Source: Escherichia coli (GTDB lineage Bacteria; Pseudomonadota; Gammaproteobacteria; Enterobacterales; Enterobacteriaceae). Taken from it: a stretch of DNA of 64,000 bases. The stretch's first letter is position 1, and each line of letters starts with the position of its first letter. Below the pieces are notes generated by a model. It was not told the DNA's origin, did not search any database, and worked only from the letters and a program-made list of their open reading frames with translations. Below, piece after piece: positions 3,867 to 15,085 of the stretch. The DNA lies in NCBI RefSeq assembly GCF_003018255.1, contig NZ_CP027440.1. One strand, 5' to 3'. A program made the position numbers and the translations under genes.

Positions 3867-4601
3867 ATGAGCAAAAATGTAATATTAAGTAATGGGGAAA
3901 GAGAAAATCCTTCTCCGCTGATCTATGACAAGCATAAAAAGCACTGTATTTTTCGTACAAAGACATTACTTAGTGAAGAGAAAAAAGAAGACGAAAAATG
4001 TACTGTATCAGTTGTATTTATTGATCATGAGGGGTATATAAGAAATGCTGGAATTATAAAACACACAGTCCCTGAACTTGAAGAAGGTCGCATGCCTAAA
4101 ATTAATGCAATAATATTGCATAGAACAGATTCTTCAACAATAAATGGTACACTTGCTAGTTTTTCTAAAGGCATTGGAACTCATTTTATTGTTGAAAAAG
4201 ATGGTAATATATACCAGGCTGCAAGCCTATTTGTATATACCAGCCATGTGGGGAAGATAAAGTCTCGATGTAAGGAGGAAAAAACATGGTCGTCTGAAGA
4301 AAAAAAGAAAACAGAGGCATTCGGATGGAATGCTAAGAAGATACATGATCATGAAAAAATTAAACAATATCCTTATAGATATCCATATAATATGGACAGT
4401 GTTGGCATTGAGGTTATTGCATTATATGATAAAAAAAATAAAAAATGGGAGTCTGCTACAGACTCTCAAAAAAAATCAATTGAGAAACTTGTAGATATAA
4501 TAAAAAATATTTATGAGTTAGAAGATAGGGATGTTTATGAACATGATAAAATTAGTTATAAAACAGAAGGTGAAGGCGCTGATCTCTATAGTGTTAATTA
4601 A
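3867..4601 (+). CDS. Putative T6SS effector, Amidase_2 (PGRP/AmpD/T7-lysozyme-like) N-acetylmuramoyl-L-alanine amidase domain
   Basis: 244 aa with no signal peptide. Motifs ILHRTDS, THFIVEKDGNIYQ, SVGIEVIALYD and EHDKIS resemble Amidase_2 zinc-amidase signatures. AT-rich gene immediately downstream of vgrG. Confidence 0.55.
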   Translation: MSKNVILSNGERENPSPLIYDKHKKHCIFRTKTLLSEEKKEDEKCTVSVVFIDHEGYIRNAGIIKHTVPELEEGRMPKINAIILHRTDSSTINGTLASFSKGIGTHFIVEKDGNIYQAASLFVYTSHVGKIKSRCKEEKTWSSEEKKKTEAFGWNAKKIHDHEKIKQYPYRYPYNMDSVGIEVIALYDKKNKKWESATDSQKKSIEKLVDIIKNIYELEDRDVYEHDKISYKTEGEGADLYSVN

Positions 4602-4980
4602 TTTCTTTTTTTGTTCAAATAGTTACTCCGAAGAAAAAATAGAGATAATAAACATTAATAAACCAATATATATAGGTACCAATCAATCAGATAAGGTGCT
4701 TATTACTGCGTGTAATCATTGGGTGCTTAATTCTAGAGATATTATAGACATATTCAATCTAAGTATAAAGCATGATGATTATGGCGAAATAAACAGAATG
4801 TATTATTGGTTACCTTGTGAAATTAGAGGGAGACTAATGTATGACGGAATAGAATGGAGTTTTGTTATCAATGCTGCTGCAACAGCAATGTGGATGAGCA
4901 ATGATAAAGAGATTTACTGGGGATGCAATAAAAAAGCATGCGATAATTTCTTTTTATTACCATATGATGGGATGAGGTAA
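4543..4980 (+). CDS. Putative secreted (periplasmic) immunity protein for the upstream amidase
   Basis: Start is ambiguous (ATG 4531/4543 or GTG 4570) and overlaps the effector 3' end. N-terminus MIKLVIKQKVKALISIVLINFFFCSNSYS has the form of a Sec signal peptide. Small Cys-rich AT-rich ORF. Confidence 0.45.
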   Translation: MIKLVIKQKVKALISIVLINFFFCSNSYSEEKIEIININKPIYIGTNQSDKVLITACNHWVLNSRDIIDIFNLSIKHDDYGEINRMYYWLPCEIRGRLMYDGIEWSFVINAAATAMWMSNDKEIYWGCNKKACDNFFLLPYDGMR

Positions 4981-5085
4981 ATCACAGTTAATAAAGCAAA
5001 AACATTATGGACAAGTGAATTAATCAGATAGTTCAAGCACCTTGAGATTCATTGTATTCATATTTCAGAATAACGGATTATTACA

Positions 5086-6300
5086 ATGCCCATCCGACTT
5101 AATACCATTCCCGACGCAGAACCCTATCCCGCACCGCCAGCCCGCATTAAATGGCTGTCAGCCTTATTACTGATGCTGTCTGTTGGTGTGGCAATAACCT
5201 CATTATTCGCCAGCGATGAACTGGCAAAAAACGGCCCATATTTCTGGGGGCTGGCCTGCGGCGTGCCTGCTTTTATCTGGTCACTGGTCGGTTCGGTGCG
5301 CTGGCTGGTATTTGTCACTCAACATATTCGTGCCGATGCCTGGAATCAACGTCGCGAAGAAGTCATTTTGCAGGAAACACGGCGGGGACGACGGGCGTTG
5401 CAGATACTCAGTTTTTCCGTACAAACCGCGCTGAATGGTGATTCCGTCGCAGAAACTACAACAGCATTTCTGGCGCGTCATCAGGTGTTGAATACTTACG
5501 CTGATTTGCGCGGAGAAGATACCGTGCGTCGCAGTGTCATTCCCGTATTAACCAATAAACCGGTTACCGGGCGTTTATCCGAAATTATTTCCCGCCTTTT
5601 TATTGATATCAGACCGCAATTGTTTCTGCTGCCCCCTGATTTTCATATCAACGTACTACTGGAAATTGATGCGCCGCTTTCAGGGGCCTCCGTGAGAACT
5701 ATCTGGCAGGACGAATGGCAAAAAGCCGGACTCCCCGAAGCCCGTCTGTTTTCTGCCCCGGAGCCGGGGCTGGCCGCCGTGGACGACTGGCTGGACAACT
5801 TTATTCAGGAAAAGGCCGTACTGCTGGTGATTTCCGTGCGTCTGGAACCGAAGAACCCGGAACGGACGGCAGAATCCGCCACCGCGCTGTTGCTGGCAAA
5901 CCGACTGACGCAAACCGCGCTGACGCCGCTGGCCCTGCTGCATCGTCCTGAACGTATCACAGATACGGAGATGATGGCGTCAGGCATTGCACAGGCGCTG
6001 GACTGGATGCCGGTGCAGCCAGATGCCATATCCGGCATGTGGACAGTCGAACTGAACAGGGAACAGCGCGCCTCGCTGCTGTCATCTAACCAGCCGTTTA
6101 CTCAGGAAGCCCTGATGTACGAGCTGGATGCCTTTCTGGGGTGCTCCGGACCGGCAGCGCCGTGGCTGTCCGTCGCTGCGGCAACGCTGGCGGCAATACA
6201 ATCACAACACCCCCAACTGACGCTCAGCGGCGTTCAGAACGGGCATTATTCATGGGCGACCATGGTGTCGCCATTCGTTTCCCCTCAGGAGGCATCATAG
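5086..6300 (+). CDS. T6SS-associated inner-membrane protein of unknown function (two N-terminal TM helices plus ~330-aa soluble domain)
   Basis: 404-aa ORF. Hydrophobic stretches WLSALLLMLSVGVAITSLFA and FWGLACGVPAFIWSLVGSVRWLVFV lie near the N-terminus. Composition is GC-rich like the T6SS core genes. Placed between the cargo module and tssM. Confidence 0.5.
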   Translation: MPIRLNTIPDAEPYPAPPARIKWLSALLLMLSVGVAITSLFASDELAKNGPYFWGLACGVPAFIWSLVGSVRWLVFVTQHIRADAWNQRREEVILQETRRGRRALQILSFSVQTALNGDSVAETTTAFLARHQVLNTYADLRGEDTVRRSVIPVLTNKPVTGRLSEIISRLFIDIRPQLFLLPPDFHINVLLEIDAPLSGASVRTIWQDEWQKAGLPEARLFSAPEPGLAAVDDWLDNFIQEKAVLLVISVRLEPKNPERTAESATALLLANRLTQTALTPLALLHRPERITDTEMMASGIAQALDWMPVQPDAISGMWTVELNREQRASLLSSNQPFTQEALMYELDAFLGCSGPAAPWLSVAAATLAAIQSQHPQLTLSGVQNGHYSWATMVSPFVSPQEAS

Positions 6301-6356
6301 TGGTTCCGGGATTAAACCGTCTCCGGCCCCGTTCGGTTTCAGGGCCTGCCATCGTC

Positions 6357-9300
6357 ATGACCGTGGCCGTTGTGGTTGCGCTTTGCACGTTTATTCACCG
6401 TAAACCGGCATTGCTGGGCGTTGAACCGGGTAGTTCACAGCAAATGTACTGGATGGCTGGCGTGATTGCCGCAGGTGTGGTCTTTCTGATTATCATGGGG
6501 GTTTATCATCTGCTGAACCGCCACGCTGCCGTACAGAGCTTTGAACTCCACAGACAGCTTGCCGCCGGAGATGACTATCGGGCGGTGACGACAAAGAAAG
6601 CCGACAGCCGTCATCCGGCAATGGTGGAACTCGCCGCCTTCCTGCGCGACCGCTACGGCCCATTCTGGCGGCGTAAAATCCGCCTGCTGCTGGTGACCGG
6701 CGAGCCTGAACAGGCAGAGGCCATCGCGCCGGGGCTGACCGGGCAACACTGGCTGGAGGGCGACCACACGGTGCTGATATATGGCGGCAGGCCATCTACA
6801 GAGCCTGATGTCGCGCTACTGACCGCCTTAAAAAAACTGCGCCGCAGCCGTCCGCTGGACGGCATCATCTGGCCGCTGACAGAAGAACAGAGCCGCCAGA
6901 CGGCGCAACTCGACAAAGGCTGGCGCGAACTGATAAACGGCGGTAAGCGACTCGGTTTTCAGGCTCCACTCTATTTGTGGCAGGTCTGTGACAACGGTGA
7001 TTATCAGACCGGACGCCCCCTGCAAAGCGTCGGCTGCCTGCTGTCGGAACGCTGTACCCCGGAACAACTGGCTGCAATGCTGGAAGCACAAACCCTGCCG
7101 CTGACGGAACAGGGCATGTCGCAGCTGCTTACCGATAACCGCCATGATTTCCTGCTGCGTCTGGCCCATACCCTTGCAGAGCGGGGTATCGCTCACTGGC
7201 AAAGTATCCTGAAACCGCTGCTGGCAGGCGGCGCATTTTCCTCCCTGCGCCTGCGTGGCCTGATGTTCAGCCCGCCGCTTACCGCCGTACCGGAAGCCGC
7301 ACCTCATGCGTGGCTGCCGTCACCGGTCTGGGCGGGCGTGACCGGCGATAACGCGCGGGGTCGCACGGTGGGCTTTCCGTGGCTGCGTATCACGCTGATG
7401 TCTGCTGTCTGCGTACTGGCGATATGGGGGGCCGGAATGACGACCTCGTTCTTCGCCAACCGCGCACTTGTTCAGGAAACCAGCATCCAGACGGCGCGTG
7501 CACTCGATATCCGTCTGCCGCTGTCTGAACAACTGGTGGCGCTGCATACCCTGCAGGGTGAACTGGAGCGCCTGCAGTACCGTATCCGGGAGGGTGCGCC
7601 GTGGTATCAGCGTTTTGGCCTTGAACGTAACCAGCAACTGCTCGCCGCCGCCTTTCCCGGCTATGCGCAGGCGGCAAACCGGCTGGTGCGCGACGTGGCC
7701 GTTGACCATCTGCAACAGCAACTGAATGCCTTTGTCGCGCTGCCGCCCAATAGTCCGCAGCGTACCGCCACCGGCGAACAGCGCTATAAGCAGCTTAAGG
7801 CATTGCTGATGACTTCCCGCCCGGAAAAGGCCGACGCTGCCTTTTTCAGTACCACGCTGATGGCAGATGACCTGCGCTATGCAGGTGTACCGGAAGGTGT
7901 GCGTCAGAGCGTGTTGCCGTCACTGCTGACCTTCTGGATGGCGAATCTGCCGGAACACCCACAGTGGAAAACTTCGCCGCCACCGGAACTGACCGGCGCA
8001 GTGCGCAAAATCCTGCTGCGCCAGATTGGTGTGCGCAATGCCGAAAACACTCTCTACCAGAACGTACTGCAACAGGTGTCCCGCAACTACGCCGATATGA
8101 CGCTGGCGGACATGACCGGGGATACGCTCACCGAATCTCTTTTCAGTACGGAGCAGACGGTGCCGGGGATGTTTACCCGTCAGGCGTGGGAAGGACAGGT
8201 CAGGGAAGCCATCGAGCAGGTGGTGACGGCGCGGCGCGAGGAAATCGACTGGGTACTCAGCGACCGCCAGCAGGATACCTCTGCGGATATCTCGCCGGAT
8301 ATGCTGCGTAACCGTCTCACTTCACGCTACTTTACCGACTTTGCCGGAAGCTGGCTGGCGTTTCTCAACAGCATTCGCTGGAAAAAGGAAGACTCGCTCT
8401 CCGGCATTCTCGACCAGTTGACGCTGATGGCCGATGCCCGCCAGTCACCGCTGATTGCGCTGACAGACACCCTCGCGTGGCAGGCGGCGGCTGGCAGGGA
8501 AAACCGTGGCCTGTCAGACTCGCTGGCGAAATCGGCACAGGAACTGTTTAACGGCAAGGAGAAAACGCCGCAGCAATCCCGTGAAGGCGACGTGCCTGTC
8601 GGGCCGCTGGATAAAACCTTCGCGCCGCTGCTGCGGTTGCTTGGCGATAAGGCAGGAGGCGGCGACAGCCAGCTGAGCCTGCAGACCTACCTCACCCGAG
8701 TCACCCGCGTGCGCCTCAAACTGCAACAGGTGACCAACGCCCCTGACCCGCAGGAGATGACCCAGCAACTGGCGCAGACGGTCTTACAAGGCAAAACCGT
8801 TGACCTTACCGACACCCGCGACTATGGCAGCCTGATAGCCGCCAGTCTGGGTGAAGAGTGGAGTGGCTTCGGTCAGGCGCTGTTCGTCCGCCCGGTGGAG
8901 CAGTCATGGCGGCAGGTGCTGACGCCTGCGGCAGACAGCCTGAACCGCCAGTGGCAGCGGGCGATTGTCAGCCACTGGGATCAGGACTTCGCTGGTCGCT
9001 ACCCGTTCAAAGCCTCACAAAACGATGCCTCCCTCCCCCTGCTGGCGCAGTACCTGCGCGATGACGGGCGCATCAACCAGTTTATCGCCGCCAATCTTTC
9101 CGGCGTACTGAAACGTGAAGGCCGCTACTGGGTGGCTGACGCCATGAACACGCAGGGGCTGACAGTCAATCCGGACTTTATTCGCGCCCTGAACCGCCTG
9201 CGCGATGTGGCCGATACCGCCTTTGCCAGCGGCGATGCAGGGATACATTTTGAACTGCGGGCAAAACCGGCGCGCGACGTGATGAAGACGCATCTGGTGA

Positions 9301-9683
9301 TTGACGGGCAGGAGCTGGAATATTTCAACCAGAAGGAACGCTGGCAGCGTTTTAACTGGCCGGATGAACAGTGGCAACCCGGCGCATCGCTGAGCTGGAC
9401 CAGTACGCAGGCGATGGAACGCATACTGGCGGATTATCGGGGAAGCTGGAGCCTTATTCGCCTGCTGGAACAGGCGCAGGTGACACCGGTGGACAGCAGT
9501 ACCTTTAAAGTGGTGTGGAAAGCGCAGGACGGCCTGCCGCTGAATTACCTGCTGCGGGTTGAACAGGGTAAAGGGCCGCTGGCGCTGCTGGAACTGAAAA
9601 ACTTCCGCCTGCCGGGACAGGTGTTCCTGACCGGCAGGAGTATGAAGGATGCGGAAGAATACGGGGAAGACGCCGATGAGTGA
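6357..9683 (+). CDS. tssM: TssM (IcmF-family) T6SS membrane-complex protein
   Basis: ~1100 aa. Two TM segments at the N-terminus, a third around WLRITLMSAVCVLAIWGAGM, then a long C-terminal domain. Start is uncertain (GTG 6300 or ATG 6357; the track ORF begins at 6141). Stop overlaps the tssA start. Confidence 0.8.
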   Translation: MTVAVVVALCTFIHRKPALLGVEPGSSQQMYWMAGVIAAGVVFLIIMGVYHLLNRHAAVQSFELHRQLAAGDDYRAVTTKKADSRHPAMVELAAFLRDRYGPFWRRKIRLLLVTGEPEQAEAIAPGLTGQHWLEGDHTVLIYGGRPSTEPDVALLTALKKLRRSRPLDGIIWPLTEEQSRQTAQLDKGWRELINGGKRLGFQAPLYLWQVCDNGDYQTGRPLQSVGCLLSERCTPEQLAAMLEAQTLPLTEQGMSQLLTDNRHDFLLRLAHTLAERGIAHWQSILKPLLAGGAFSSLRLRGLMFSPPLTAVPEAAPHAWLPSPVWAGVTGDNARGRTVGFPWLRITLMSAVCVLAIWGAGMTTSFFANRALVQETSIQTARALDIRLPLSEQLVALHTLQGELERLQYRIREGAPWYQRFGLERNQQLLAAAFPGYAQAANRLVRDVAVDHLQQQLNAFVALPPNSPQRTATGEQRYKQLKALLMTSRPEKADAAFFSTTLMADDLRYAGVPEGVRQSVLPSLLTFWMANLPEHPQWKTSPPPELTGAVRKILLRQIGVRNAENTLYQNVLQQVSRNYADMTLADMTGDTLTESLFSTEQTVPGMFTRQAWEGQVREAIEQVVTARREEIDWVLSDRQQDTSADISPDMLRNRLTSRYFTDFAGSWLAFLNSIRWKKEDSLSGILDQLTLMADARQSPLIALTDTLAWQAAAGRENRGLSDSLAKSAQELFNGKEKTPQQSREGDVPVGPLDKTFAPLLRLLGDKAGGGDSQLSLQTYLTRVTRVRLKLQQVTNAPDPQEMTQQLAQTVLQGKTVDLTDTRDYGSLIAASLGEEWSGFGQALFVRPVEQSWRQVLTPAADSLNRQWQRAIVSHWDQDFAGRYPFKASQNDASLPLLAQYLRDDGRINQFIAANLSGVLKREGRYWVADAMNTQGLTVNPDFIRALNRLRDVADTAFASGDAGIHFELRAKPARDVMKTHLVIDGQELEYFNQKERWQRFNWPDEQWQPGASLSWTSTQAMERILADYRGSWSLIRLLEQAQVTPVDSSTFKVVWKAQDGLPLNYLLRVEQGKGPLALLELKNFRLPGQVFLTGRSMKDAEEYGEDADE

Positions 9684-11286
9684 ACTGTTGCAAAAGCTGA
9701 CCCGTAGCTGTTTTGCCGACCGGGACGCACTGGACTCGGCGCGAACACAGGCGGCGCTGTGGCAGACATGGCTGCTGCCGGTGACGGCAGATACGCCGGT
9801 CGGGGAAGACCCCGGCTACCACGACGATTTCCTGCGTATCCGCGACGAGATGAACAAACTTTCCGGCGCGGATACGGACCTTATCTGCCAGCTTGCCGAA
9901 TCCCTGCTGCTGACGCAGGCAAAAGACGTGCGCATCGCCACTTACTATATCTGGGCGCGACTGCACCGCGATGGCGAACGCGGACTGGCTGAGGGGCTGG
10001 CGCTGTTAGCCGGACTGGTGGAACGCTTCGGTGCGCAACTGCTGCCCTCGCGCCCGGCAAGCCGAAAAATGGCGCTGGAGTGGCTGGCAGGGGAAAAGAT
10101 GCTCGACAGCCTTGCCCGCTACCCGGAAGTGGCAAAAGAGGATTTTGCGAACATTGTTGCCGCTCTTAATCAACTGACGGTTTCCTTCACTGCATGGCCC
10201 GAAGACCAGCATTCCCCCTCCCTGATGCCGCTGATTAACGCGCTGGAATCACGTCTGGCGCAGTCGGGTGGGATGAACGCGGTGGTGCCGCAGAACAGCA
10301 GCGGCGTTCCGGCACCGTCTTCCCCGGTGGATGCGCCACAGGTACAGACCATCACTTCCGGGCGCGACCTGCTCGACCAGGCGAAAGTGCTGGCCCGTTA
10401 TCTGAACGAACAGCCGCAGGGCTGGCTTTCAGCACACCGGCTGATGAAAACCCTGCGCTGGGACACGGTGCATGAACTGCCGCCGGATGTGGACGGAAAA
10501 ACCCGGCTGGCCCCGCCGCGCACAGAATCACGCAACCAGCTTAAGCGGCTGTATGCTCAGCAGAACTGGACGGAACTGCTGGAGCAGGCCGACCTGATGT
10601 TCAGCACCGGCGTCAGCCATTTCTGGCTGGACATTCAGTGGTATCTGCATCAGGCGCTGACTAAGGCGGGCGCACCGTGGGACAGGTGGACAGCGGTTAT
10701 CCGTCAGGACCTGGCGTTACTACTGGAACGCCTGCCGGGGCTGGAAAATCTGGCATGGAACGACGGCACGCCGTTCGCCGATGAGTTGACGCGCAACTGG
10801 ATAGCGCAGCAGGTCATGATGCGGGAAGACGGCGCATGGCTTGCGGGGAAAGCCGCTGTACCGACAGACGACGCCACAAACGACGTACTGGCGCTGGAGC
10901 CGGAAGCGCTGGAGATGGCAGACAGTCAGGGCGTGGAAGCGGCGCTGGGCTGGATACAGACCCGTCCGGGCATCACCACGGCACGCCAGCGCCTGTTATT
11001 GCGACTGCTGATGGCGCGGGTGGCGGAACAGTACGGTAAAAACGAGATGGCGCTCCTGCTGCTGGAAGAACTGGATATCGCCGCACAGGGGCTGACGCTG
11101 ACGCAGTGGGAGCCGGACCTGCTGTTTGAGGTAAAAGCCCGACAGCTGAAACAGCTGCGCCTGCGGGCGCACCGCTATGCGGATAAAGCCCTGCTGAACC
11201 GAAAAATGGAAATCCTGCTGGGAACGCTGGTGACAATAGATCCGGTACGGGCAGCGGTATTGTGTGATACGCAACATAAGGACTGA
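9676..11286 (+). CDS. tssA: TssA (ImpA_N-domain) T6SS baseplate/cap protein
   Basis: N-terminal ImpA_N-like block (...LLPVTADTPVGEDPGYHDDFLRIRDEMNKL...). ATG at 9676 overlaps the tssM stop (ATGAGTGA); an alternative ATG lies at 9649. Confidence 0.8.
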   Translation: MSELLQKLTRSCFADRDALDSARTQAALWQTWLLPVTADTPVGEDPGYHDDFLRIRDEMNKLSGADTDLICQLAESLLLTQAKDVRIATYYIWARLHRDGERGLAEGLALLAGLVERFGAQLLPSRPASRKMALEWLAGEKMLDSLARYPEVAKEDFANIVAALNQLTVSFTAWPEDQHSPSLMPLINALESRLAQSGGMNAVVPQNSSGVPAPSSPVDAPQVQTITSGRDLLDQAKVLARYLNEQPQGWLSAHRLMKTLRWDTVHELPPDVDGKTRLAPPRTESRNQLKRLYAQQNWTELLEQADLMFSTGVSHFWLDIQWYLHQALTKAGAPWDRWTAVIRQDLALLLERLPGLENLAWNDGTPFADELTRNWIAQQVMMREDGAWLAGKAAVPTDDATNDVLALEPEALEMADSQGVEAALGWIQTRPGITTARQRLLLRLLMARVAEQYGKNEMALLLLEELDIAAQGLTLTQWEPDLLFEVKARQLKQLRLRAHRYADKALLNRKMEILLGTLVTIDPVRAAVLCDTQHKD

Positions 11287-12698
11287 TGGCAATGGGAACA
11301 GGCTACTTTCTGGTCAGGGGGGACAAAACCACCTGCGGCGGCAAAATTATTGAAGGCGCGGACGACCATACGATCATGGGTATCCCGCAGGCGCGGGATA
11401 TGGACCGGGTCACCTGCGGCAGATATCCGGGAATGTTTATTATTGTGGGCGGCGTTCCTGAAACAGATATTCACGGCAGGCTGATGGCGGGGACGCTGGA
11501 CAGTCAGAGCAGTTGCCCGTGTAAGGCACGGTTTATTGCGTCAATGATGGATGATACGTATGAGACGGATGACGGGGAAAGTGAAGCGGAACAACATGCG
11601 CAGTCGGCGAAAAAGGATCTGACTTCTGGTTCTGATTCATCCTCTGATGATGTAAAACTGGATTACAGAATTAAATTATCAGGTAATAAGATACTGACGC
11701 CACTGAATATACCTGATTATAAAGAAATGATTAGCGGTGGTAGTACGAAGAATACAGAAAAAATAGATTTTACCATCACAAATAAAGGCGATGAGGCTGA
11801 AGCGCTTTCTCTGGAAGTGCTTGATGGTAATGAAGTGATTTATAGTGAACGGCAGACCGGTAAATATTGTGATAAGGGAGAGCATGCCTGGCAATGGGAT
11901 GGCTACAGTAATCAAGGCATACTGGATACAACTAAGATAAAAAGCAAATCACTACTCGTAAGACTGATTGCTTTATGTGGTGATATGATGATAAAAGTTG
12001 ATTATCCATTGAAAAATGCTGCGAAAGAAGAAGAGTGGGTTGATGTAAAAGTTGACAGAAATAATAAAGTGGTCGATATAACATGGAGATTATCTGTTAA
12101 GGATAGCGGTACAAAAGGCAGTAACCCTGAGTTATCGCCAATACCTTATAGCGATTTAGTTAGTCTTACTAAAAATGGCGTGGAGTTTTACTGGTCACGA
12201 AATGGAAGTCGCGGCGGGGGAATTGGTGGTAATATCGTTACAGCGATTGGGGTTTTTAAAGTAAATGTAAAGGCTGAGATAAATATTACTCCATCTATGC
12301 GAACTTTTGATTTGATATCATCGTTAGATCCAGATATGCAGTCGTCGGTAAGTCTTTTGGGGTTTGAAAAAATATACCATAACTATGGTGGCTATTATAA
12401 TAACAGCAAGGATGAAATAAAGGCTCTTCTATATAGTAATGAAAGATATAAATGGGATAGTGCTCATGAGATGGGACATAAAGTTATGGATAAATATGGT
12501 TCTGAATCATGGACACATAAGGGGACATCCACGCGGGGTCAAAGTACCATCCCTAATACTCCAATGCCATCTTCAGGAGAGATTGATATAATGAAATATG
12601 CAGATAGCTATGCACCTGATAGATATAAGAGATTGGTCGCGGCAGATGAAGATGTTCAGGCATTGATCTGGTTGAGCAGGGTGAGTTTTAATGATTAG
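11286..12698 (+). CDS. PAAR-like domain protein with C-terminal HExxH (zincin-like) putative toxin domain
   Basis: N-terminus (GDKTTCGGKIIEGADDHTIMGIPQARDMDRVTCG...) resembles PAAR/DUF4150 spike-tip domains. C-terminal region is AT-rich and contains HEMGH. ATG overlaps the tssA stop (TGATG). Confidence 0.6.
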   Translation: MAMGTGYFLVRGDKTTCGGKIIEGADDHTIMGIPQARDMDRVTCGRYPGMFIIVGGVPETDIHGRLMAGTLDSQSSCPCKARFIASMMDDTYETDDGESEAEQHAQSAKKDLTSGSDSSSDDVKLDYRIKLSGNKILTPLNIPDYKEMISGGSTKNTEKIDFTITNKGDEAEALSLEVLDGNEVIYSERQTGKYCDKGEHAWQWDGYSNQGILDTTKIKSKSLLVRLIALCGDMMIKVDYPLKNAAKEEEWVDVKVDRNNKVVDITWRLSVKDSGTKGSNPELSPIPYSDLVSLTKNGVEFYWSRNGSRGGGIGGNIVTAIGVFKVNVKAEINITPSMRTFDLISSLDPDMQSSVSLLGFEKIYHNYGGYYNNSKDEIKALLYSNERYKWDSAHEMGHKVMDKYGSESWTHKGTSTRGQSTIPNTPMPSSGEIDIMKYADSYAPDRYKRLVAADEDVQALIWLSRVSFND

Positions 12699-12713
12699 AA
12701 TAATTGTTTTTTA

Positions 12714-13115
12714 TTGTTTTTTTTGAGTGGGTGTACTTCACAAAAAGAGTATTCCAATATAGTCAGGATTGAGAATAGATGCTCCTCAGATATCGATGTC
12801 TTTATTCAGGGATATGTTTCCGGTTCTACGCTGATTTATCAGCATAATATACACTTGCCAGTTGGTGATAGTGATGTATTAGTATATTTTTCCACGGCAG
12901 ATATTGATGATGGTTTTAAATATGAGGGGGCATTCATGATATATAAAGATAGCCGCGGTGAATTGGATTATCCATTCACCATTTCATTGTCAGGGCGCGA
13001 AAAAAAATTTGGGAAGAATGACTTAATTAGATTATCACGAGATATTTCAACAAAAGACGACAGAAAATACGGAGTTATAAGATATATAATCGACAGTCAG
13101 GAAATTTGCCCGTGA
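12714..13115 (+). CDS. Small AT-rich ORF, candidate immunity protein; 5' end probably disrupted by a homopolymer frameshift
   Basis: The track ORF starts at a TTG. An upstream ATG at 12691 (overlapping the PAAR stop) encodes MIRIIVFYCFF and then hits a stop after a T8 tract. One extra T would give MIRIIVFYCFFLSGC..., a lipoprotein signal with lipobox. Confidence 0.4.
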   Translation: MFFLSGCTSQKEYSNIVRIENRCSSDIDVFIQGYVSGSTLIYQHNIHLPVGDSDVLVYFSTADIDDGFKYEGAFMIYKDSRGELDYPFTISLSGREKKFGKNDLIRLSRDISTKDDRKYGVIRYIIDSQEICP

Positions 13116-13324
13116 TGTTTTAAGTTATTCGTTCACAATTATTAATTATTGCCTATTATGTAAGGTAAATTTAATTTGGTTCAGAAAAGACAAGAATACA
13201 TCATTATTAAAATCAATAAGTCAGCAACTATCCATAATATATTCACATAGAATAAATTTAACTATGATGTTACTTCTACACCTGCATGATATTCACTTTC
13301 AATGAAAGGAAGATAATCCCTCCG

Positions 13325-15085
13325 ATGGACGATCTAACCCAACGCTACTACGAAGCCGAAATGCGCTACCTGCGTGAAGCGGGGAAAGAATTTGCGCAGG
13401 CTTACCCCGACCGCGCCGCGATGCTCAATCTTGATAAACCCGGCGCACGCGATCCCTATGTGGAGCGCCTGTTCGAAGGCTTCGCTTTTTTAATGGGTCG
13501 CCTGCGTGAAAAGCTGGATGACGACCTGCCCGAACTGACCGAGGGGCTGGTCAGCCTGCTGTGGCCTCACTACCTGCGAACCATCCCGTCACTTTCCGTG
13601 GTTGAACTGTCGACAGATCACCGGCAGATGAAGCAGAGCGAAACACTGAGTAATTTTCAGGTATTGTCGCGTCCTGTTGGCGAGCGCAGAACCCGCTGTG
13701 TCTACAGTGCTACGCGGGATATCACGCTGCATCCGCTGGCGCTGCCGGACGTGTCATTGCAATATGAACCGGACGGGCGCTCGGTTATCCGTCTGCGCTT
13801 TGAATGCGGCCCGCTGGTTGGTGACTGGTCACAGATCGATCTATCCCGTTTGCCGCTCTATCTCAATGCCGACAGCCCGGTGGCCTGTGCGCTGCACCGG
13901 GCTTTAACGCTTGGCACCCAGCAGTTCTGGCTGCGTCTGCCGGGGCAGGAACGCCGTGTGCTGGACGCGCACTTTTCCCCGATGGGTTTTGATGACAATG
14001 ACCGACTGTGGCCAAAAGGCGAGTCGGCGTTCAGCGGCTACCAGTTGCTGCTGGAGTATTTCACCTTCCGCGAAAAGTTTATGTTTGTGGCGCTGAACGG
14101 GCTGGAGAACGTCATCTGGCCGGAAGGGATGAGCGGCTTTGAGATTGACGTGGTGCTGAGCGAGAACTGGCCTCACGACCTGCCGTTTGACAGCGATAAT
14201 ATCCGTCTGCACTGCGTGCCGGTCATCAACCTGTTCCCGCTGGAAGCCGATCCGTTACACCTTTCGCCACTGGAAAACGAATTTCTGCTGCGCCCGATGC
14301 GTATTCAGGACGGGCATACCGAGATTTATTCCGTCGACAACATTATTTCTTCGCGCCATACCGGCAGTCAGGCGTATGTCCCGTTTTCCAGCTTTCGTCA
14401 CCGGGGCGGGATGCTGCGCCACGATGCACCGGAACGCTATTACCATACGCGGGTTAAGCGCGGCCCTTCCGGCCTGCATGATACCTGGCTGATTCTGGGC
14501 GGCGATGCGTTTGATTCCGACCGGATGCTGGAGGATGAAACGCTCTCTTTAAGCCTGACCGGCACTAACGGACAGCTTCCCCGTAAGGCTTTACAGAGCA
14601 CGCTGCTTGATACGCCAGTTCATGCCTCACAGAACGTCCTGCGGGTGCGCAACCTGTGCGCCCCGACGCAGCCCTGTTATCCCCCGGCGCGTGACCGCTT
14701 CCACTGGCGGGTGCTCAGCCACCTCGGTTCTAACTTTCTTTCAATGATGGATAACGCCGAAATTCTGCGCGGCACGCTGGCGCTGTACGACTGGACCGAA
14801 AGCGAGATGAACCGCCGCCGTCTGTCGGCGATTGTCGACGTTCAGCACAGCCTGATACAGCGTTTTGAAAGAGGCTTTCTGCTGCGTGGCGTGGATATTC
14901 AGGTGACGCTGGACAGCACCGGCTTTGCCGGAGAGGGTGATATCACGCTGTTTGGCGAACTGCTGCACCGCTTCTTTGCACTGTATGCCGATATCCACTT
15001 ATTCACTCAACTGACCTTAATTCTGCAACCCACAGGAAAGTGCCTGCAATGGACAGAGCATCACAGCCAGCGCGTACCGGGCTGA
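13325..15085 (+). CDS. tssF: TssF (ImpG/VasA family) baseplate protein
   Basis: N-terminus MDDLTQRYYEAEMRYLREAGKEFAQAYPDRAAMLNL matches the conserved TssF N-terminal pattern. The track ORF begins 13 codons upstream at 13286. Confidence 0.8.
   Translation: MDDLTQRYYEAEMRYLREAGKEFAQAYPDRAAMLNLDKPGARDPYVERLFEGFAFLMGRLREKLDDDLPELTEGLVSLLWPHYLRTIPSLSVVELSTDHRQMKQSETLSNFQVLSRPVGERRTRCVYSATRDITLHPLALPDVSLQYEPDGRSVIRLRFECGPLVGDWSQIDLSRLPLYLNADSPVACALHRALTLGTQQFWLRLPGQERRVLDAHFSPMGFDDNDRLWPKGESAFSGYQLLLEYFTFREKFMFVALNGLENVIWPEGMSGFEIDVVLSENWPHDLPFDSDNIRLHCVPVINLFPLEADPLHLSPLENEFLLRPMRIQDGHTEIYSVDNIISSRHTGSQAYVPFSSFRHRGGMLRHDAPERYYHTRVKRGPSGLHDTWLILGGDAFDSDRMLEDETLSLSLTGTNGQLPRKALQSTLLDTPVHASQNVLRVRNLCAPTQPCYPPARDRFHWRVLSHLGSNFLSMMDNAEILRGTLALYDWTESEMNRRRLSAIVDVQHSLIQRFERGFLLRGVDIQVTLDSTGFAGEGDITLFGELLHRFFALYADIHLFTQLTLILQPTGKCLQWTEHHSQRVPG

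What the first reader, a model, noticed from the sequence alone, without database searches (positions are those of the whole stretch)
6357..7700. TssM cytoplasmic domain appears to lack a canonical Walker A P-loop
Between TM2 and TM3 I see no GxxxxGK[ST] motif; the only candidate position reads LLLVTGEPEQAEA. Some TssM proteins bind or hydrolyse NTP and others do not. A degenerate P-loop would place this system in the NTPase-independent group.
Basis: seen in the sequence. Interest (0 to 1): 0.3.

Follow-up and report, generated by a model that had tools for sequence, protein, structure and literature searches.

The report
TssM with a degenerate GTPase domain

The parts
6300..9683 (+). tssM coding sequence (1127 aa from GTG 6300; RefSeq annotates 6357..9683, 1108 aa, 'ImcF-related family protein')
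   Evidence: ORF and annotation. Pfam PF06761, PF21070 and PF06744 match. 45% identical over the full length to EAEC Sci-1 TssM, PDB 6HS7/6IXH. GTG 6300 has AGGAGG 6-7 nt upstream and restores TM1.
6342..6395 (+). TM1 (GPAIVMTVAVVVALCTFI), cut short by the RefSeq start
   Evidence: Read from the sequence. It aligns with the EAEC TssM N-terminus 'RPGIVFIGVAALWWLI'.
6447..6515 (+). TM2 (YWMAGVIAAGVVFLIIMGVYHLL)
   Evidence: Kyte-Doolittle maximum 2.33.
6516..7370 (+). Cytoplasmic domain, about 285 aa: GTPase-like fold with no nucleotide-binding motifs (pseudo-GTPase)
6681..6737 (+).
   Evidence: Aligns to 'WYMVIGPAGSGKS...'. In the subfamily G134 is kept in 128/128 sequences, the next residue is E or D in 92/128, and P144 is kept in 129/130. 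No sequence has GK[ST] here.
6768..6788 (+). Walker B/G3-equivalent TVLIYGG, with the Asp replaced by an aromatic residue
   Evidence: Aligns to 'AVIFDVDG'. Position 161 is W, Y or H in 126/132 sequences and D in 1/132. G162 is kept in 94/132 and G163 in 107/133.
6855..6875 (+). Conserved PLDGIIW strand, shared with canonical TssM 'PLNGLIL'
   Evidence: Weak PF14331 hit at residues 172-225 (E 0.093). hhalign alignments.
6969..6992 (+). LYLWQVCD, the stretch that aligns where a GTPase G4 [NT]KxD motif would lie (my reading); no such motif is present
   Evidence: Aligns to canonical 'VYVVLTRLD'. Column counts.
7380..7454 (+). TM3 (WLRITLMSAVCVLAIWGAGMTTSFF)
   Evidence: Hydropathy windows and sequence.
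7455..9680 (+). Periplasmic IcmF-related, helical and C2-like domains
   Evidence: Pfam. TIGR03348 matches only residues 364-1105. PDB 4Y7M/4Y7L/4Y7O match the C-terminus.
5086..6300 (+). Upstream partner gene: 404-aa membrane-anchored protein with a ketosynthase/thiolase-like fold. Its TAG stop overlaps the GTG start of tssM by 1 nt.

Best explanation
The segment between TM2 and TM3 of this TssM is a pseudo-GTPase. It descends from the P-loop GTPase-like domain of canonical TssM/IcmF proteins and keeps that fold. It has no Walker A lysine/serine and no Walker B/G3 aspartate, and the stretch that aligns where a G4 motif would lie carries none. The phosphate-binding loop has shrunk to two residues followed by acidic side chains. 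It therefore most likely cannot bind or hydrolyse NTP. Instead it serves as a rigid cytoplasmic docking platform of the TssJLM membrane complex for TssL, the TssK head domain, TssG and TssA, as shown for its EAEC Sci-1 homologue. Energy for firing and recycling comes from sheath contraction and the ClpV/TssH ATPase encoded in the same cluster. Shown here: the absence of motifs, the positional equivalence, the fold, and conservation with purifying selection. Inferred: the lack of nucleotide binding and the scaffold role.
Against: No nucleotide-binding or activity measurement exists for this protein or, in the papers I could read, for EAEC TssM. The structural argument rests on a predicted model built from a 12-sequence alignment. 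dN/dS in this domain (0.16-0.44) is higher than in the periplasmic domain (0.04-0.05), so constraint is weaker. The function of the replacement motif (G-E/D-x-x-x-I/V-x-x-h-x-P-x-L) is unknown and could be something other than passive scaffolding.
Confidence: 0.8

Rival explanations
1. The domain still binds a nucleotide, or another phosphorylated ligand, in a non-canonical way and acts as a switch without a classical P-loop.
For: The GTPase fold is retained. The replacement motif and the invariant GG pair are strongly conserved, which could reflect a ligand site rather than only a protein interface.
Against: The modelled strand 1-helix 1 loop is 2 residues long instead of the usual 8-residue anion hole. 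The residue after the invariant Gly is acidic in 92/128 sequences, which should repel phosphates. The Mg-coordinating Ser/Thr and Asp are both absent.
Confidence: 0.07
2. The motif loss reflects decay: this tssM, or the whole cluster, is a non-functional relic.
For: RefSeq does not name it tssM, because it fails TIGR03348. Some strains carry disrupted copies, for example an ISEc12 insertion in Ecol_542.
Against: The ORF is intact at 1127 codons. dN/dS is below 1 in every region. The same state is conserved across Escherichia, Klebsiella, Photorhabdus, Pantoea and Pseudomonas. The EAEC homologue with the same defect is the TssM whose membrane-complex structure was solved. 912 E. coli genomes hold a place covering at least 80% of the gene.
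Confidence: 0.02
3. The lost activity is replaced by, or coupled to, the conserved upstream ketosynthase-fold membrane protein. The pair forms one functional unit, for example a built-in adaptor or regulator docked on TssM.
For: Homologues of the 404-aa protein lie directly upstream of P-loop-less TssM in 8 of 9 loci, often overlapping the tssM start. In strain NGF1 the upstream gene and the TssM TM hairpin are replaced together. The protein's fold resembles the T6SS adaptor Tla3.
Against: The partner has no Walker A either, so it cannot supply NTPase activity. One subfamily member (L012) lacks it. No interaction data exist. I compared synteny with only one canonical TssM locus.
Confidence: 0.1
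4. A P-loop exists but is hidden by a wrong start codon, a frameshift or a misalignment.
For: The RefSeq start is probably wrong by 19 codons.
Against: The 19 extra residues are a basic N-terminus plus TM1 and carry no P-loop. The whole ORF from 6141 has no motif. The alignment to EAEC TssM is continuous. 128 homologues agree at this site.
Confidence: 0.01

Closest known systems
EAEC Sci-1 TssM (EC042 'ImcF-related family protein', PDB 6HS7 / 6IXH; periplasmic fragments 4Y7L/4Y7M/4Y7O)
   Same: Same gene order in the cluster: tssB-C-K-L, OmpA-family gene, hcp, tssH, vgrG ... partner gene, tssM, tssA ... tssF-G-J-E. 45% identical over the full length. Same three-TM layout. Same degenerate sites: 'ILLITGTASEVELLTPGL' and 'TLLLWGG'. 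Same syntenic upstream partner.
   Different: Only 35% identity in the cytoplasmic domain. The window protein reads GEPEQ where EAEC reads GTASE. The window cluster sits next to a Met-tRNA gene array and the EAEC 042 cluster lies elsewhere in the chromosome. The cargo genes between vgrG and tssM differ.
Canonical Walker-A TssM (A. tumefaciens TssM/ImpL; EAEC 042 T6SS-1 TssM, L002:20396-23833)
   Same: Homologous cytoplasmic domain (hhalign 97-98%). Same periplasmic Pfam domains. Same role as the inner-membrane core of the T6SS.
   Different: Canonical proteins carry GPAGSGK[ST], hhhhDxxG and a full PF14331 match, and they pass TIGR03348. The A. tumefaciens protein binds and hydrolyses ATP, and that activity is needed for Hcp secretion (PMC3346141). 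The window protein has none of the motifs and is about 19 residues shorter between strand 1 and strand 3.
Edwardsiella tarda EvpO (a TssM whose Walker A is dispensable)
   Same: It shows that T6SS function need not depend on the TssM P-loop (cited in PMC3346141, PMC4632598, PMC9972734).
   Different: EvpO still has a Walker A motif. Here the motif is absent by evolution, not by mutagenesis.
[not shown]
   Different: No sequence relationship. Calling those proteins pseudo-GTPases rests on my own knowledge and was not tested here.

Membership tests
TssM / IcmF family (T6SS inner-membrane core subunit) | Periplasmic IcmF-related, IcmF_helical and IcmF_C domains | tested here: met
   PF06761 E 2.3e-47, PF21070 E 2.7e-42, PF06744 E 1.5e-22.
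TssM / IcmF family (T6SS inner-membrane core subunit) | Three transmembrane segments with a large cytoplasmic loop between TM2 and TM3 | tested here: met
   Hydropathy peaks. TM1 is recovered with the GTG 6300 start. The layout matches EAEC TssM. This is prediction only.
TssM / IcmF family (T6SS inner-membrane core subunit) | Encoded within a T6SS core gene cluster | tested here: met
   tssB, C, K, L, hcp, tssH, vgrG, tssA, F, G, J and E flank it.
TssM / IcmF family (T6SS inner-membrane core subunit) | Passes the NCBIfam equivalog TIGR03348 (VI_IcmF) | tested here: not met
   259.4 bits against a cutoff of 388.15. Only residues 364-1105 match. This explains the RefSeq name 'ImcF-related family protein'. 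I read it as a limit of the model, not as evidence against orthology, because EAEC Sci-1 TssM is annotated the same way.
TssM / IcmF family (T6SS inner-membrane core subunit) | IcmF-related_N domain (PF14331) in the cytoplasmic loop | tested here: inconclusive
   Pfam gives 12.5 bits against a cutoff of 25, E 0.093, covering residues 172-225 only. Profile-profile alignment with canonical N-domains is nonetheless significant.
Active P-loop NTPase / TRAFAC GTPase | Walker A (G1) GxxxxGK[ST] | tested here: not met
   Absent from the whole protein. The aligned site reads GEPEQ followed by a deletion. Absent at the aligned site in all 128 sequences that cover it, out of the 150 best relatives.
Active P-loop NTPase / TRAFAC GTPase | Walker B / G3 hhhhDxxG | tested here: not met
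   The aligned site reads VLIYGG. The Asp position is W, Y or H in 126/132 sequences.
Active P-loop NTPase / TRAFAC GTPase | G4 [NT]KxD | tested here: not met
   The stretch I take as the G4 position reads LWQVCD. The canonical EAEC T6SS-1 TssM also lacks a strict [NT]KxD, so this feature discriminates less.
Active P-loop NTPase / TRAFAC GTPase | Three-layer alpha/beta GTPase fold | tested here: met
   [not shown]
Active P-loop NTPase / TRAFAC GTPase | Measured nucleotide binding or hydrolysis | not testable with these tools
   Needs biochemistry.
Sci-1-type P-loop-less TssM subfamily (defined here) | Conserved replacement motifs hhhhxG[ED]xxx[IV]xxhxPxL and hhhh[WYH]GG | tested here: met
   Column counts, sequence rows.
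Sci-1-type P-loop-less TssM subfamily (defined here) | A membrane protein of about 380-412 aa with a ketosynthase-like fold encoded directly upstream | tested here: met
   Window 5086..6300. Homologues in 8 of 9 loci (and the locus tables).

The most novel reading that the evidence does not exclude
The P-loop-less TssM subfamily works as an obligate pair with the membrane-anchored, catalytically dead ketosynthase-fold protein encoded just upstream. That protein is structurally like the DUF2875 adaptor Tla3. It would dock on the TssM TM hairpin or pseudo-GTPase domain and act as a built-in cargo or PAAR loading adaptor, or as an assembly regulator, taking over a step that NTP turnover controls in canonical TssMs.
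Probability: 0.15. Interest if true: 0.55.

Novelty: already known. Interest (0 to 1): 0.15.

Why it matters
For the finding itself, very little. It confirms that this E. coli cluster belongs to the Sci-1-type T6SSs, whose TssM is a structural anchor rather than an enzyme. That agrees with the current view that sheath contraction and ClpV supply the energy for T6SS.

There are two practical points. First, NCBI's TssM equivalog model and Pfam's IcmF-related_N model both miss this cytoplasmic domain. These proteins are therefore named 'ImcF-related family protein', and the RefSeq start here probably cuts off TM1. Second, this pseudo-GTPase family (339 clusters at 50% identity) keeps its own conserved surface motif and a conserved upstream partner gene. 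Both are concrete, untested handles on how the membrane complex of the best-studied T6SS model recruits the baseplate or cargo.

Tried and rejected
- hhalign of the 12-sequence subfamily profile against a single canonical sequence aligned only the C-terminal two thirds of the domain (probability 23%). I then used a broader subfamily profile (69 sequences) and a 7-sequence canonical profile.
- The Foldseek afdb50 library was not available, so I could not make a direct structural comparison with predicted canonical TssM N-domains.
- I tested whether the upstream 404-aa protein is a duplicated or split TssM N-domain. It is not: BLASTP and hhalign show no similarity.
- Pfam and NCBIfam scans of the upstream protein found nothing, although some RefSeq genomes name a neighbour 'KPHS_23130 family T6SS system protein'.
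- Several literature searches looked for an explicit statement that EAEC Sci-1 TssM lacks Walker motifs. They found only the general sentence in PMC9972734.
- A search for names of the upstream gene (KPHS_23130, EC042_4538, SciR, TagB) returned only irrelevant papers.
- The periplasmic 'GKT' at residue 812 was considered and rejected as a P-loop. Its spacing is wrong (AxxxxxGKT) and it lies in the wrong compartment.

Full report
**What is there.** The window is Escherichia coli chromosome, 100% identical over tssM to strain JNE23-011. The finding lies in a complete T6SS cluster next to a Met-tRNA gene array. The gene order is tssB, tssC, tssK, tssL, an OmpA-family gene, hcp, tssH, vgrG, an Amidase_2/PGRP-type gene, a small ORF, a 404-aa hypothetical gene, the 'ImcF-related family protein', tssA, a PAAR gene, tssF, tssG, tssJ, tssE and a VasL-domain gene. 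This matches the order of the EAEC 042 Sci-1 cluster. The TssM ORF runs 6141..9683, and RefSeq starts it at ATG 6357, which is the finding's start coordinate. It carries the three periplasmic TssM/IcmF Pfam domains. It is 45% identical over its full length to EAEC Sci-1 TssM, whose structure is in the PDB as 6HS7 and 6IXH.

**Checking the observation.** A regex scan finds no [AG]xxxxGK[ST] anywhere in the protein. 'LLLVTGEPEQAEA' is at nt 6684-6722, between TM2 and TM3. Absence alone is what chance predicts: 0.0135 motifs are expected in this 285-residue domain, and 1.45% of shuffles contain one. The question therefore had to be settled through homology.

As a canonical comparator I took the other T6SS of EAEC 042. 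Its tssM (L002:20396-23833) has Walker A GPAGSGKS at residues 113-120, Walker B VIFDVDG at 156-162 and a full PF14331 match, and it passes the NCBIfam equivalog TIGR03348 with 942 bits. The window protein matches TIGR03348 only from residue 364 onward (259 bits, cutoff 388). It has only a sub-threshold PF14331 hit (12.5 bits, E 0.093).

**Positional equivalence.** A 69-sequence profile of the window's subfamily was aligned by hhalign to a 7-sequence profile of Walker-A-bearing TssMs. The alignment covers the whole domain, with probability 98.4% (global) and 97.0% (local), and E 7.6e-14 and 1e-10. The paired segments are:
- 'RKIRLLLVTGEPEQ' on 'QLPWYMVIGPAGSGKS';
- 'TVLIY-GG' on 'AVIFDVDG';
- 'RPLDGIIW' on 'QPLNGLIL';
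- 'LYLWQVCD' on 'VYVVLTRLD', the stretch where I would place a GTPase G4 motif;
- 'LRGLMFS' on 'LRGVWLTS'.

Only the first glycine of the Walker A survives. The Walker B aspartate is gone, no [NT]KxD is present, and about 19 residues between strand 1 and strand 3 are missing.

**Is it decay?** No, for four reasons.
- A profile search of 1.84 billion representative proteins found 339 relatives of this domain. Of the 150 best, 128 cover the site, and none has GK[ST] at the aligned position.
- These relatives share their own motif. G134 is kept in 128/128. The next residue is Glu or Asp in 92/128. There is an Ile or Val five residues after the glycine. P144 is kept in 129/130 and L146 in 124/130. 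Position 161 is aromatic in 126/132, followed by G162 (94/132) and G163 (107/133).
- Named members come from Escherichia, Klebsiella, Photorhabdus, Pantoea and Pseudomonas.
- Among E. coli alleles, dN/dS of the cytoplasmic domain is 0.16-0.44. This is below 1 but less constrained than the periplasmic part at 0.04-0.05.

EAEC Sci-1 TssM reads 'ILLITGTASEVELLTPGL' and 'TLLLWGG' at the same sites.

**Mechanism.** The best-supported reading is a pseudo-GTPase scaffold. For EAEC, the TssM cytoplasmic domain was modelled on NTPases plus DPY-30 (PMC6517824). It contacts the TssK head domain and TssG, while TssA also takes part in docking the baseplate (PMC6300606). The cluster encodes ClpV/TssH. By contrast, A. 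tumefaciens TssM binds and hydrolyses ATP through Walker A and B motifs, and this is needed for Hcp secretion (PMC3346141). In E. tarda, Walker A substitutions have no effect. [quoted passage not shown] The lack of nucleotide binding here is an inference from sequence and model. It has not been measured.

**Novelty.** The phenomenon is in the literature in general terms, and the best-studied TssM shares it. The window protein is an ordinary RefSeq protein that matches 1249 of 5426 complete E. coli genomes. I score the finding as already known and of low interest. From memory only, reviews from the Cascales group say explicitly that EAEC TssM lacks the motifs. I could not verify this in the held library.

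**Side results.**

1. Start codon. GTG 6300 is a better start than ATG 6357. AGGAGG lies 6-7 nt upstream of it, and it overlaps the TAG stop of the upstream gene by one base. It adds 'VVPGLNRLRPRSVSGPAIV', which completes TM1 and aligns with the EAEC N-terminus.

3. Mosaic allele. In strain NGF1 the upstream gene and the first ~115 residues of TssM, including the TM hairpin, are replaced together, while the rest of TssM stays about 95% identical at the DNA level. The breakpoint is near window 6651. These observations suggest, but do not show, that the partner and the TssM N-terminus work together.

Noticed in passing
[not shown]
   Followed up: partly
window 6300-6357 (+): The RefSeq start of tssM (ATG 6357) probably cuts off TM1. 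GTG 6300 has an AGGAGG Shine-Dalgarno 6-7 nt upstream and overlaps the upstream TAG stop by 1 nt. The 19 added residues align with the EAEC TssM N-terminus.
   Followed up: partly
window ~5086-6651; L004:1140-2650 (strain NGF1): Mosaic allele. In NGF1 the upstream partner gene and the first ~115 codons of tssM (TM1-TM2 hairpin, dN about 1.0) are replaced, while the rest of tssM is about 95% identical. This implies a recombination breakpoint inside tssM near window 6651 and co-inheritance of the partner with the TM hairpin.
   Followed up: partly
window 11286-12698 (+): A 470-aa PAAR-domain protein (PF05488 at the N-terminus) in a low-GC stretch (43% in 12001-14000). It has a C-terminal 'AHEMGH' (HExxH) motif, which suggests a metallopeptidase-like toxin domain. 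A small ORF follows it.
   Followed up: no
window 3867-4980 (+): A low-GC cargo pair (41.7% GC in 4001-6000) lies downstream of vgrG: an Amidase_2/PGRP-type putative peptidoglycan amidase effector and a 149-aa ORF with a hydrophobic N-terminus, likely its immunity protein. Other strains carry an SLT transglycosylase or Tli4/PAAR genes at this position.
   Followed up: no
L005:2658-5962 (strain Ecol_542): In this strain tssM is cut short by an IS21-family ISEc12 insertion (istA/istB), so the cluster is inactivated in some lineages.
   Followed up: no
L008:498-11363 (GCA_047324915.1, CP168522.1): A P-loop-less TssM and its partner lie at the end of a vgrG - Glyco_hydro_19 effector - PAAR island, with no tssA, tssF or tssG downstream. 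Unrelated genes follow. This may be a split or auxiliary arrangement.
   Followed up: no
window 6300-9683: NCBIfam TIGR03348 and Pfam PF14331 do not cover the cytoplasmic domain of this subfamily. RefSeq therefore names these core TssM proteins, including EAEC Sci-1 TssM, only 'ImcF-related family protein'.
   Followed up: yes
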